A stretch of 63,378 nucleotides of DNA, the filler included, from Malassezia furfur (taxonomy: Eukaryota): assembly GCA_052055015.1 (NCBI GenBank). It is 16 parts of 16 records of this genome, joined end to end, with 100 filler letters (N's around TTAATTAATTAA, not from the genome) between each part and the next. Parts side by side here need not be neighbours in the genome. Positions count along the whole stretch, not along the records: positions 55,703 to 59,498 come from JBQJIT010000728.1; 15 more parts are not named here. One strand, 5' to 3'. Below are positions 57,743-59,498 of this stretch, piece after piece. A program made the position numbers and the translations under genes. Position 1 is the stretch's first letter; each line of letters starts with the position of its first letter. The notes under the pieces are model-generated. The model was not told where the DNA came from. It saw nothing but the letters and a program-made list of their open reading frames with translations, and made no database searches.

Positions 57743-58636
57743 ATGAGTCCTCCTGTCTCGGGCAAGTACAAGGAATCGGCCACCGCGCGTCTGCTCGGCT
57801 CGGGCACGTCAGGCATCGCCGAGCTGATGGTGTTCCACCCCGTGGACACCGTCGCGAAGCGCCTGATGAGCAACAAGGACCGCACGCGGTCGCTGACGCA
57901 GGTCATCTTCAAGGATAAGGCGAGTGCCGGCCTGGGCACGCGCTTCCTGAGCCTCTTCCCCGGCCTGGGCTATGCGGCAGGCTACAAGGTGCTCCAGCGC
58001 ATCTACAAGTACGGCGGCCAGCCGTACTTCAACGACTACCTCACCGCGCACCACAAGAAGCAGTTTGAGAGCTGGTTCGGCGAGCGCACGGGCAAGAGCG
58101 TGATGGCCGCGACCGCCGGCTCGCTCACGGGCATCGGTGAGGTGGTGCTGCTGCCGCTCGACGTGCTCAAGATCAAGCGCCAGACGAACCCCGAGTCGTT
58201 CCGCTCGCGTGGCTTCCTCCGGATCCTCGCGGACGAGAACGTCAACCTGTACCGCGGGTGGGGCTGGACCATGGCGCGCAATGCGCCCGGCTCGTTTGCG
58301 CTGTTCGGCGGCAGCGCGTTCACGAAGGAGTACATCTTTGGCCTGAAGAACTACTCGGATGCCACCTGGACGCAAAACTTTGTCGCGTCGATCGGCGGCA
58401 GCGTCGCGAGCATCACCGTCGCCGCGCCGCTCGACGTCGTCAAGACGCGCATCCAGAACGCCAACTTCGAGTCGAAGGTCGGCGGCGTGACAATCATCAA
58501 GGAGATGCTCAAGAACGAGGGCATCACGGCCTTCTTCAAGGGCCTCACGCCCAAGGTGCTCGTCGTCGGGCCCAAGCTCGTCTTCTCCTTCACGCTCGCC
58601 CAGTCGCTGATCCCGTGGTTCGGCAAGTATGTGTAG
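57743..58636 (+). CDS. GGC1: Mitochondrial GTP/GDP carrier
   Basis: ESATARLLGSG, FHPVDTVAKRLMSN, SLFPGLGYAAGYKVLQRIYKYGGQP, LPLDVLKIKRQTNPE, ARNAPGSFALFGG. Confidence 0.96.
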   Translation: MSPPVSGKYKESATARLLGSGTSGIAELMVFHPVDTVAKRLMSNKDRTRSLTQVIFKDKASAGLGTRFLSLFPGLGYAAGYKVLQRIYKYGGQPYFNDYLTAHHKKQFESWFGERTGKSVMAATAGSLTGIGEVVLLPLDVLKIKRQTNPESFRSRGFLRILADENVNLYRGWGWTMARNAPGSFALFGGSAFTKEYIFGLKNYSDATWTQNFVASIGGSVASITVAAPLDVVKTRIQNANFESKVGGVTIIKEMLKNEGITAFFKGLTPKVLVVGPKLVFSFTLAQSLIPWFGKYV

Positions 58637-58696
58637 ACTATGTACAGCCGCCGCATGGATCGGGTATCTGGTGTGTGAGCAGGTCCCATCGCAGCA

Positions 58697-58809
58697 GGGT
58701 CCCTCAGTAGAAATCGTTGCATCACGCTAGGCGCGCCAGGCCTGCAGGCGAGCAGGCCCTTGAGGCACGCCCGCTCAGGCGCAAATTACAAGTACCATCC
58801 TTGGGACCC
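58697..58809 (-). ncRNA. Box C/D snoRNA, U16/snR87-like (18S rRNA 2'-O-methylation guide), intronic
   Basis: Perfect 7-bp terminal stem GGGTCCC/GGGACCC; degenerate C box AGGATGG; guide GTAATTTGCGC directly before D' CTGA, complementary to conserved 18S GCGCAAAUUAC; C'-like GTGATGC; D box CTGA next to the stem. Lies in a GTACGT...CTCAC-ACACCAG intron (58668-58824). Confidence 0.8.
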
Positions 58810-58824
58810 ACGAAAAGCACGTAC

Positions 58825-59498
58825 CTAGTTGCCCAGCAGCGCGAGCGCCTGTGCCTCTTGCTCGGCGAGCGTCGCGGTGCGTGCGCGCTTGGGCTGCGGC
58901 GGCGCGGCCTCCTCGTCGGAGGCGTCGCCCGGCAGCACCAGATCCGGCAAATCGTCCACGTCGAGCTCGCCGCCGGCGAACTCGGCGACGGGCGCGCGCG
59001 TGCCGTTCGCCTCGGCGAGCTGCCGCTCGATCTCCTTGGCGCGGCGCTTCTTTTCCTGGCGCTTGCGCTTCGCGCGCTCCTTGTCCACGACGTCGGCCTC
59101 GGCCATCCGCGCGCGCTCCTCGGCCTCGTGCGCAGCGATCTGCGCCGCGACGTCGCCCTGCTGCCGGAAGGCCTCCTCGTTCTGCAGCTCGTACAGCGAG
59201 CGCGCATTGCCCTCGTCGTCAAACACGATCTTGTCGGCCTTGCCGCGCTTGCCGGCGGCGGCCATCGCCTTCTTGCTCTGGCCCTGCAAGATCTGGCGCT
59301 TCGACAGGTCGTGCGACGCGGGCGCCGACGCCGCCTCGTCGAGATCGTGGCCCGCGCGCTTCAGCGTGAGCAGCTCGCCGTCGTCGTCGTCGATGTCAAA
59401 GCCCGCGTCGTCCGAATCGACCATGTTGGCGTAGTGCGCACTCAGCACGGTGTTGTTCGTGCGGCCAAACAGGCGGTCGTGCTTGGTGCGCACCTTGG
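58825..59498 (-). CDS. DBP4: DEAD-box rRNA-processing helicase Dbp4/DDX10, C-terminal fragment
   Basis: VRTKHDRLFGRTNNTVLSAHY, LLTLKR.GHDL, KIVFDDEG...LYEL, ADVVDK..AK.KR.EKK, EQEAQALALL. Confidence 0.85.

What the first reader, a model, noticed from the sequence alone, without database searches (positions are those of the whole stretch)
58668..58824. U16/snR87-like C/D snoRNA hidden in a 3'-UTR intron that begins at the DBP4 stop codon
Seen: on the minus strand the DBP4 stop is followed directly by a donor (TAG|GTACGT). A CTCAC branch and CAG acceptor close a 157-nt intron, far longer than the 21-40 nt introns elsewhere. Inside are a GGGTCCC/GGGACCC stem, two CTGA boxes and the guide GTAATTTGCGC. 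Established: this guide pairs with conserved 18S GCGCAAAUUAC. The D'+5 rule points to the first A after GCGC, which I recall as the U16/snR87 site (human Am484, yeast Am436). Inference: an 18S-processing helicase hosts an 18S guide RNA in a non-coding 3'-UTR intron, which would couple their expression. The C box (AGGATGG) is unusually degenerate. The ORF track cannot show this element.
Basis: partly seen in the sequence, partly recalled or inferred. Interest (0 to 1): 0.75.

Follow-up and report, generated by a model that had tools for sequence, protein, structure and literature searches.

The report
Guide RNA in helicase tail intron
In skin yeasts of the genus Malassezia, a small RNA predicted to guide one chemical mark on ribosomal RNA sits in an intron just behind the stop codon of a ribosome-building helicase gene; the RNA is of a known type, but its host and position look new.

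Summary
Real feature. Every element is at the stated coordinates. The guide pairs with this genome's own 18S at 432-442, and the D'+5 rule gives A436, the yeast snR87 / human U16 site. The host is DBP4 of a Malassezia furfur-like genome with two homeologous copies. The second copy keeps 109 of 113 snoRNA bases, with a compensatory stem change, while the spacers diverge. All 11 Malassezia-like DBP4 loci among 80 metagenome loci keep a donor 2-23 nt after the stop, the boxes, the guide, the hairpin and a branch/acceptor; 0 of 69 other fungal loci do. Against: no Rfam hit here; one orthologue reaches SNORD16 below threshold; no RNA data could be examined. Corrections: the AGGATG C box is usual in this genome (18 of 20 candidates), and VPS5 also hosts a 3'-UTR-intron snoRNA, so functional coupling to DBP4 is unproven. 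3'-UTR-intron snoRNAs are known from Drosophila mfl, and this scan noted a similar layout at CCT4 in another genome.

The parts
58825..59498 (-). 3' part of DBP4 (DDX10/HCA4) coding sequence, ending in TAG at 58827-58825; the 5' part is cut off by the contig end and N linker
   Evidence: The homeolog ORF is 782 aa with DEAD, Helicase_C and CTE_SPB4 domains. The best named hits are DBP4 of Malassezia furfur and other Malassezia, and their C-termini end at the same place.
58668..58824 (-). Predicted 157-nt 3'-UTR intron
   Evidence: Orthologous introns of 152, 154, 155, 155, 197 and 384 nt. Not seen in RNA.
58819..58824 (-). 5' splice site GTACGT; the AG of the stop codon supplies the exonic AG
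   Evidence: GTA[CT]GT lies 0-23 nt after the stop in 13 of 13 Malassezia sequences.
58697..58809 (-). Predicted box C/D snoRNA with terminal stem, 113 nt (98 nt from box C to box D)
58803..58809 (-). 5' arm of terminal stem; pairs with 58703-58697. The pair 58806/58700 is U-A here and C-G in the homeolog
58795..58801 (-). Box C, AGGATGG
   Evidence: Same place reads ATGATGG in 2 of 5 related lineages and AGGATGG in 3 of 5; aligns to box C of the SNORD16 model
58779..58789 (-). D' guide, 11 nt, pairs with 18S 432-442; base 58783 (D'+5) faces A436
   Evidence: invariant in 9 of 9 aligned sequences
58775..58778 (-). Box D' (CTGA)
   Evidence: Invariant
58726..58774 (-). Internal two-part hairpin between D' and C'
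   Evidence: Lower helix: 5 of 9 pairs with changes on both sides. Upper helix: 7 of 9 pairs invariant (alignment fitted to the structure; one search gives the unfitted count).
58744..58757 (-). Extra-pairing element (upper helix 5' strand and loop), complementary to 18S 422-432 just 5' of the guide site
   Evidence: Best of 5155 rRNA windows for this copy; loop register 7 of 7 pairs here, 6 of 7 in five relatives
58719..58725 (-). Box C' (GTGATGC)
   Evidence: TG[AC]TG-like in relatives
58704..58707 (-). Box D (CTGA); no conserved guide before it
   Evidence: Invariant; longest rRNA match upstream is 8 nt or less and differs between lineages
58668..58680 (-). Branch motif GCTCAC (branch A at 58676) and CAG acceptor
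   Evidence: 12 of 13 nt kept in the homeolog; branch plus YAG in all lineages
58637..58667 (-). Non-coding 3' exon before it overlaps the convergent gene; starts with ATACCC
   Evidence: 31 of 31 nt identical in the homeolog
57755..58636 (+). Convergent mitochondrial carrier gene; its stop is 31 nt from the acceptor
   Evidence: Pfam Mito_carr; same neighbour in 11 of 11 Malassezia-like loci

Best explanation
This is the Malassezia counterpart of the U16/snR87 box C/D snoRNA, encoded in a spliceosomal intron in the 3' UTR of DBP4. Shown by sequence: boxes, stem, hairpin, guide, splice signals and their conservation. Inferred: RNA polymerase II transcribes DBP4 through the stop codon into the intron; the spliceosome removes it; box C/D proteins bind the lariat; debranching and exonuclease trimming release an RNA of about 100-113 nt; its D' guide pairs with 18S 432-442, its hairpin loop adds pairing just upstream (422-432), and fibrillarin 2'-O-methylates A436. 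The Dbp4 protein is the same whether or not the intron is spliced, so the intron is probably kept to release the snoRNA. Helicase mRNA and guide come from one transcript; whether that pairing is itself selected is open.
For: Target in the genome's own 18S is A436, the snR87 site in yeast and U16 Am484 in human. Of 9 exact copies of the 11-mer in the genome, only the two homeologs are followed by CTGA. Homeolog: 109 of 113 nt kept, compensatory U-A to C-G, spacers diverged, donor, branch and acceptor kept. 11 of 11 Malassezia-like loci in 5 lineages keep the whole layout. Donor-like motifs are rare after stops otherwise: 5 of 220 putative stops in this genome within 30 nt, and 3 of 53 other fungal DBP4 ends within 60 nt. 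76% of cells paired versus 34-49% for slid controls. The L021 orthologue aligns end to end to SNORD16 at the expected place and strand. Extra pairing next to the target is a described snR87/U16 trait. The same script finds a guide for SSU A968 in an IMPDH intron, matching yeast Am974/snR54 (site; the IMD4 host is recalled).
Against: No Rfam match for this copy at E <= 10 and none for SNORD16 or snR87 at this locus in the genome search. The orthologue's match is 22.9 bits, E 5.1, against a threshold of 45, and 4 of 5 orthologues tested gave no SNORD16 match. No RNA reads, small-RNA data or methylation data were examined. The guide plus box alone is within chance. Two of five covariation measures do not beat shuffles, and related sequences inflate the others. 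Terminal stems of relatives differ in place and are short in one lineage. The extra-pairing element ranks behind about 5 other rRNA sites in 3 of 6 lineages.
Confidence: 0.86

Rival explanations
1. The snoRNA is real and intronic, but is made from a separate spliced non-coding transcript whose promoter and first exon lie inside the end of the DBP4 coding sequence; DBP4 mRNA contributes little.
For: This genome has snoRNA candidates in tandem introns of an apparently non-coding transcript (L104/L180). Transcript starts were not observed.
Against: The donor is 0 nt from the stop and box C is 23 nt further on, so any DBP4 mRNA with a 3' UTR must carry the donor. The donor stays tied to the stop in 6 of 6 lineages.
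Confidence: 0.06
2. The snoRNA is cut from an unspliced 3' UTR or read-through RNA, as reported for a Plasmodium snoRNA, and the splice signals are rarely used.
For: A precedent is described for Plasmodium PFS9 (passages). No junction reads were seen here.
Against: Donor, branch and acceptor persist while the spacers between them do not. The D box to branch distance is 26-44 nt in 5 of 6 lineages, like the genome's other intronic candidates (where 15-50 nt was a filter).
Confidence: 0.05
3. The element is a conserved cis-acting structure of the DBP4 3' UTR, or of the antisense carrier transcript, and the rRNA complementarity is incidental.
For: No Rfam hit. An 11-nt match plus CTGA arises by chance in 21 of 60 simulations. 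The convergent gene is always adjacent.
Against: The invariant columns are exactly box C, guide, D', hairpin and D, in C/D order on the DBP4 strand. The target is a known methylation site. No better snR87 candidate was found in the genome.
Confidence: 0.03

Closest known systems
snR87 (yeast) / U16 = SNORD16 (vertebrates); Rfam RF01216, RF00138; family CD_10 of the fungal snoRNAome (PMC5824354)
   Same: D' guide to 18S Am436/Am484, internal hairpin between D' and C', extra pairing next to the target.
   Different: Below Rfam thresholds. Box C reads AGGAUGG. D' is a perfect CUGA, whereas the yeast D' is called non-consensus. Yeast snR87 is listed as monocistronic and U16 as intronic; here the host is a DBP4 3'-UTR intron.
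Drosophila minifly/Nop60B 3'-UTR intron snoRNA cluster (PMC1821038; abstract and section 7 read)
   Same: C/D snoRNAs in 3'-UTR introns of a ribosome-biogenesis gene, one per intron.
   Different: There: a cluster behind alternative poly(A) sites, about 70 nt from the acceptor. Here: one snoRNA, a 157-nt intron at the stop codon, D box 36 nt from the acceptor, in a fungus with very short introns.
Fungal RPL7/snR39-59 and NOG2/snR191 host pairs (PMC8476143; passages read)
   Same: Intron kept in intron-poor fungi, Malassezia included, because it holds a snoRNA; host and guest act on the same ribosomal subunit.
   Different: Those are widely conserved (82% and 72% of fungi) and concern the large subunit. 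This one is non-coding, concerns the small subunit, and was found only in Malassezia-like loci. 'DBP' does not occur in that paper's main text.
Plasmodium 3'-UTR snoRNA PFS9 (PMC2656528; passages read)
   Same: [quoted passage not shown]
   Different: Not flanked by splice sites in that report, and about 600 nt from the stop.

Membership tests
Box C/D snoRNA | Box C (RUGAUGA) near the 5' end | tested here: met
   AGGATGG: two deviations, GA-U-G core intact; ATGATGG at the same place in 2 of 5 related lineages; AGGATG in 18 of 20 intronic candidates of this genome
Box C/D snoRNA | Box D (CUGA) near the 3' end, with internal D'/C' | tested here: met
   D and D' invariant in 9 of 9 aligned sequences; C' GTGATGC here, variable in relatives
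Box C/D snoRNA | Terminal or external stem bringing C and D together | tested here: met
   7 bp with a compensatory change in the homeolog; 4-8 bp stems at differing places in relatives
Box C/D snoRNA | Guide of 10 nt or more to rRNA directly before D or D' | tested here: met
   11 of 11 nt, the longest perfect match to SSU or LSU
Box C/D snoRNA | Stable small RNA bound by Snu13/Nop56/Nop58/Nop1 that directs methylation | not testable with these tools
   No RNA data could be examined
U16/snR87 (defined by target site) | D' guide to 18S Am436 (yeast) / Am484 (human) | tested here: met
   D'+5 faces A436 of the genome's own 18S, counted from the start of the Rfam match; sites
U16/snR87 (defined by target site) | Extra base-pairing next to the target site | tested here: met
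   18S 422-432; best of 5155 windows in 3 of 6 lineages, behind about 5 sites in the other 3; trait described
Rfam RF00138 SNORD16 / RF01216 snR87 (formal membership) | Covariance-model score at or above the gathering threshold (45 and 37 bits) | tested here: not met
   No hit for this copy; one of five orthologues gives 22.9 bits, E 5.1. Not filed as a formal Rfam member; filed as the target-defined counterpart.
Intron-encoded snoRNA | Lies between a donor and a branch/acceptor of a host transcript | tested here: met
   13 of 13 Malassezia sequences
Intron-encoded snoRNA | Intron actually spliced, and snoRNA dependent on splicing | not testable with these tools
   No reads could be examined

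The most novel reading that the evidence does not exclude
Malassezia keeps a hidden layer of snoRNA-releasing introns in 3' UTRs (DBP4 and VPS5 found so far), missed by coding-intron surveys and by Rfam because of a lineage-wide AGGAUG box C. At DBP4 the intron is a regulatory link: one transcript yields the helicase that helps fold the 18S 5' domain near the U14 site and the guide that binds 18S 422-442, next to the U14-guided Cm414, and splicing also joins the stop codon to an AUACCC (Khd4-type) decay element, so splicing sets helicase and guide levels together.
Probability: 0.15. Interest if true: 0.7.

Novelty: new variant of a known kind. Interest (0 to 1): 0.42.

Why it matters
It gives a concrete reason for a long non-coding intron to survive in a fungus whose introns average about 30 nt (M. 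sympodialis). It extends the 'introns kept because they carry snoRNAs' argument to 3' UTRs. It shows a snoRNA that Rfam misses and a box C variant (AGGAUG) that dominates this genome's candidates, which affects how Malassezia snoRNAs are annotated. Because the protein is unchanged by splicing, the locus allows a clean test of whether host-snoRNA pairing matters: the intron can be moved or removed without touching Dbp4. It does not add a new RNA class or mechanism.

Tried and rejected
Rfam scans of the region, the whole window and the 126-nt element gave only unrelated chance matches. Genome searches with RF00138 and RF01216 found nothing at this locus. A second (D-box) guide was rejected: best matches 8 nt or less and not conserved. 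The RNAalifold consensus paired the guide with C' and missed the terminal stem; I used a hand-set structure instead, so the pair counts lean towards it. The model built from 9 of the Malassezia sequences matches them by construction, and its sensitivity outside Malassezia has no positive control. Viral and prokaryotic collections gave nothing. U14 was not securely found in the genome (E 0.13), so the neighbouring U14 site rests on the yeast numbering and C414 in the genome's 18S. ATACC after stop codons is only weakly enriched: 13 of 220, with permutations at 12, 11 and 11, so a Khd4 link is not claimed. The bacterial promoter scan does not apply to a fungus. One search opened an unrelated paper and was not used. 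Supplements of PMC5824354 could not be read, and they may already list Malassezia snR87 coordinates. Ten literature searches showed no paper on a DBP4-hosted snoRNA or on Malassezia 3'-UTR snoRNAs in their listings; most subscription papers are outside the library.

Full report
Setting. The window is a chain of contigs of about 4 kb joined by N linkers. The genome is 13.7 Mb in 1856 contigs and holds this locus twice, at 100% and 91% identity. The protein upstream of the finding has DEAD, Helicase_C and CTE_SPB4 domains in the full-length second copy. Its best named relatives are DBP4 of Malassezia furfur and other Malassezia, which end at the same C-terminal motif. I read the genome as M. furfur-like with two homeologous subgenomes; the hybrid interpretation is from my own knowledge.

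Observation. All stated elements are present. I add a C' box (58725-58719) and a two-part hairpin (58774-58726). The body folds at z = -3.7, and 0 of 200 shuffles fold as well. The guide is the longest perfect match to the genome's own rRNA, 11 nt at 18S 432-442, and the fifth base before D' faces A436. Papers give Am436 for yeast snR87 and Am484 for human U16 (passages of PMC5824354, PMC5199042 and PMC8817022). This match alone is weak: 21 of 60 simulated windows contain an 11-nt rRNA complement before a CTGA.

Rfam. Of five orthologues scanned, one (L021) aligns end to end with SNORD16 at the expected place and strand, at 22.9 bits, E 5.1, against a threshold of 45. The alignment covers box C, the guide, the hairpin loop, C' and D. 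I therefore call it the target-defined counterpart of U16/snR87, not a formal Rfam member.

Conservation decides it. In the homeolog, 109 of 113 snoRNA bases, 12 of 13 branch-acceptor bases and 31 of 31 exon bases are kept, but only 2 of 9 and 7 of 16 spacer bases; two of the four changes turn a U-A stem pair into C-G. A metagenome scan with a DBP4 C-terminal alignment confirmed 235 of 303 stretches and kept the best 80. Eleven are Malassezia-like by nearest protein and by the same convergent mitochondrial carrier gene, and they fall into five lineages. All 11 have a GTA[CT]GT donor 2-23 nt after the stop, AGGATGG or ATGATGG, the invariant guide with CTGA, the hairpin, box D and a branch with YAG; the introns are 152-197 nt, and 384 nt in one lineage. 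For comparison, a donor-like motif follows 5 of 220 putative stops in this genome within 30 nt. With a hand-set structure, 76% of cells pair against 34-49% in slid controls; 3 of 5 measures beat all 500 shuffles and 2 do not (85% on the model-fitted alignment). Shared ancestry inflates these counts.

Range. None of the other 69 fungal loci gives a significant match to my model (best E 1.5). In the 53 where I located the C-terminus, none has the guide within 500 nt; 49 had at least 300 nt downstream, 2 stops are probably mislocated, and 16 loci were set aside (13 without the motif, 3 truncated). No smut or Exobasidiomycete was nearest hit for any of the 69, so the insertion date between Malassezia and its sister groups is open, and the model has no positive control outside the genus.

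How it most likely works. Shown: anatomy and conservation. Inferred from established snoRNA biology: the intron is spliced from DBP4 pre-mRNA, the lariat is debranched and trimmed to the protein-protected RNA, and the D' guide directs methylation of A436. A second element in the hairpin pairs with 18S just upstream of the guide site, either as 10 pairs with a bulge at 422-431 or from the loop at 426-432. This site is the best of 5155 rRNA windows in three lineages and behind about five sites in the other three. Extra pairing is described for snR87/U16 and raises methylation in other yeast snoRNAs (passages of PMC3116282). No D-box guide is conserved. The stop codon lies in the upstream exon, so the protein does not depend on splicing.

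First, box C. Of 121 distinct donor-plus-A[GT]GATG matches examined (from 98 and 25 hits), 20 have a D box before a branch and acceptor; 16 of these have an rRNA guide of 10 nt or more (29 of 400 in shuffles), and 18 read AGGATG. The survey covers only three donor types and 12-22 nt spacing. Second, coupling. Dbp4 is thought to help fold the 18S 5' domain around the U14 site (review PMC9196750, passages), and U14 guides Cm414, close to the region this RNA binds, so host and guest fit. But another candidate, with a 15-nt guide to LSU C687, lies in an intron 29 and 57 nt after the stop of a PX/Vps5 sorting nexin in the two homeologs, a host unrelated to ribosomes. Other hosts are coding introns of IMPDH, OLA1-like, eIF3k-like and PDCD2-like genes (names from my reading of the translations). 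The DBP4 pairing may be selected or may be a convenient transcript.

Comparison and novelty. snR87 is reported from all fungal lineages analysed except Microsporidia. snoRNAs in 3'-UTR introns of a ribosome-biogenesis gene are described for Drosophila minifly (abstract and section 7 of PMC1821038), a 3'-UTR snoRNA for Plasmodium, and snoRNA-bearing conserved introns for fungal RPL7 and NOG2. Ten searches listed no report of DBP4 as a host. I saw listings and selected passages, not whole texts, and could not read the supplement of the fungal snoRNAome, which may hold the Malassezia coordinates. Verdict: a real, genus-conserved new variant of a known arrangement, untested at the RNA level; interest 0.42.

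Noticed in passing
L151 minus strand from 2043 and L152 minus strand from 2356 (G000:C89, C105): Second 3'-UTR-intron C/D snoRNA candidate: 126-127 nt intron starting 29 and 57 nt after the stop of a PX/Vps5 sorting nexin, with a 15-nt guide to LSU C687.
   Followed up: partly
Own genome: L104, L106, L110, L121, L133, L135, L138, L144, L152, L156, L170, L180, L181, L216: A set of intronic C/D snoRNA candidates that mostly escape Rfam; AGGATG is the dominant box C (18 of 20 candidates, 8 of 9 guide families). Two related lineages use ATGATG at the DBP4 locus.
   Followed up: partly
L224 (G000:C502), Snu13: Snu13 is very close to yeast Snu13 but has Val for Ile in the RPVI motif. I recall this residue lining the pocket for the flipped-out box C base; a link to the U-to-G box C shift is speculation.
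   Followed up: partly
window 58667-58662 (-); L021-L023, L026-L028 just after the stop: The mature mRNA would read stop-ATACC in 3 of 6 lineages, with the intron before ATACC here and after it in the others, as if the intron slid by 8-10 nt. AUACCC is the Khd4 decay motif of Ustilago maydis (PMC10450656, passages). Enrichment after stops is weak.
   Followed up: partly
window 58634-58667; L026-L028: The convergent mitochondrial carrier gene ends 31 nt from the acceptor here and directly at it in L026, so its 3' UTR probably runs antisense into the snoRNA intron. The carrier appears to have a short last intron in four lineages but not here or in L026 (my reading).
   Followed up: no
L104 1501-1770 / L180 (G000:C3, C245): Two back-to-back introns with no exon between them (acceptor AG directly followed by a donor), each holding a C/D snoRNA candidate (SSU U1225, LSU A2645), in an apparently non-coding transcript.
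   Followed up: no
L024 3768-4151: In this lineage the intron is 384 nt, the terminal stem is weak, and an 8-bp external stem in the flanks may replace it.
   Followed up: partly
window 58688-58682 (-): A second GGGACC just before the branch motif could pair with the 5' stem arm; it is absent from the homeolog.
   Followed up: no
whole window: Contigs of about 4 kb are joined by N linkers with a TTAATTAATTAA core, so gene order across linkers is not real.
   Followed up: yes
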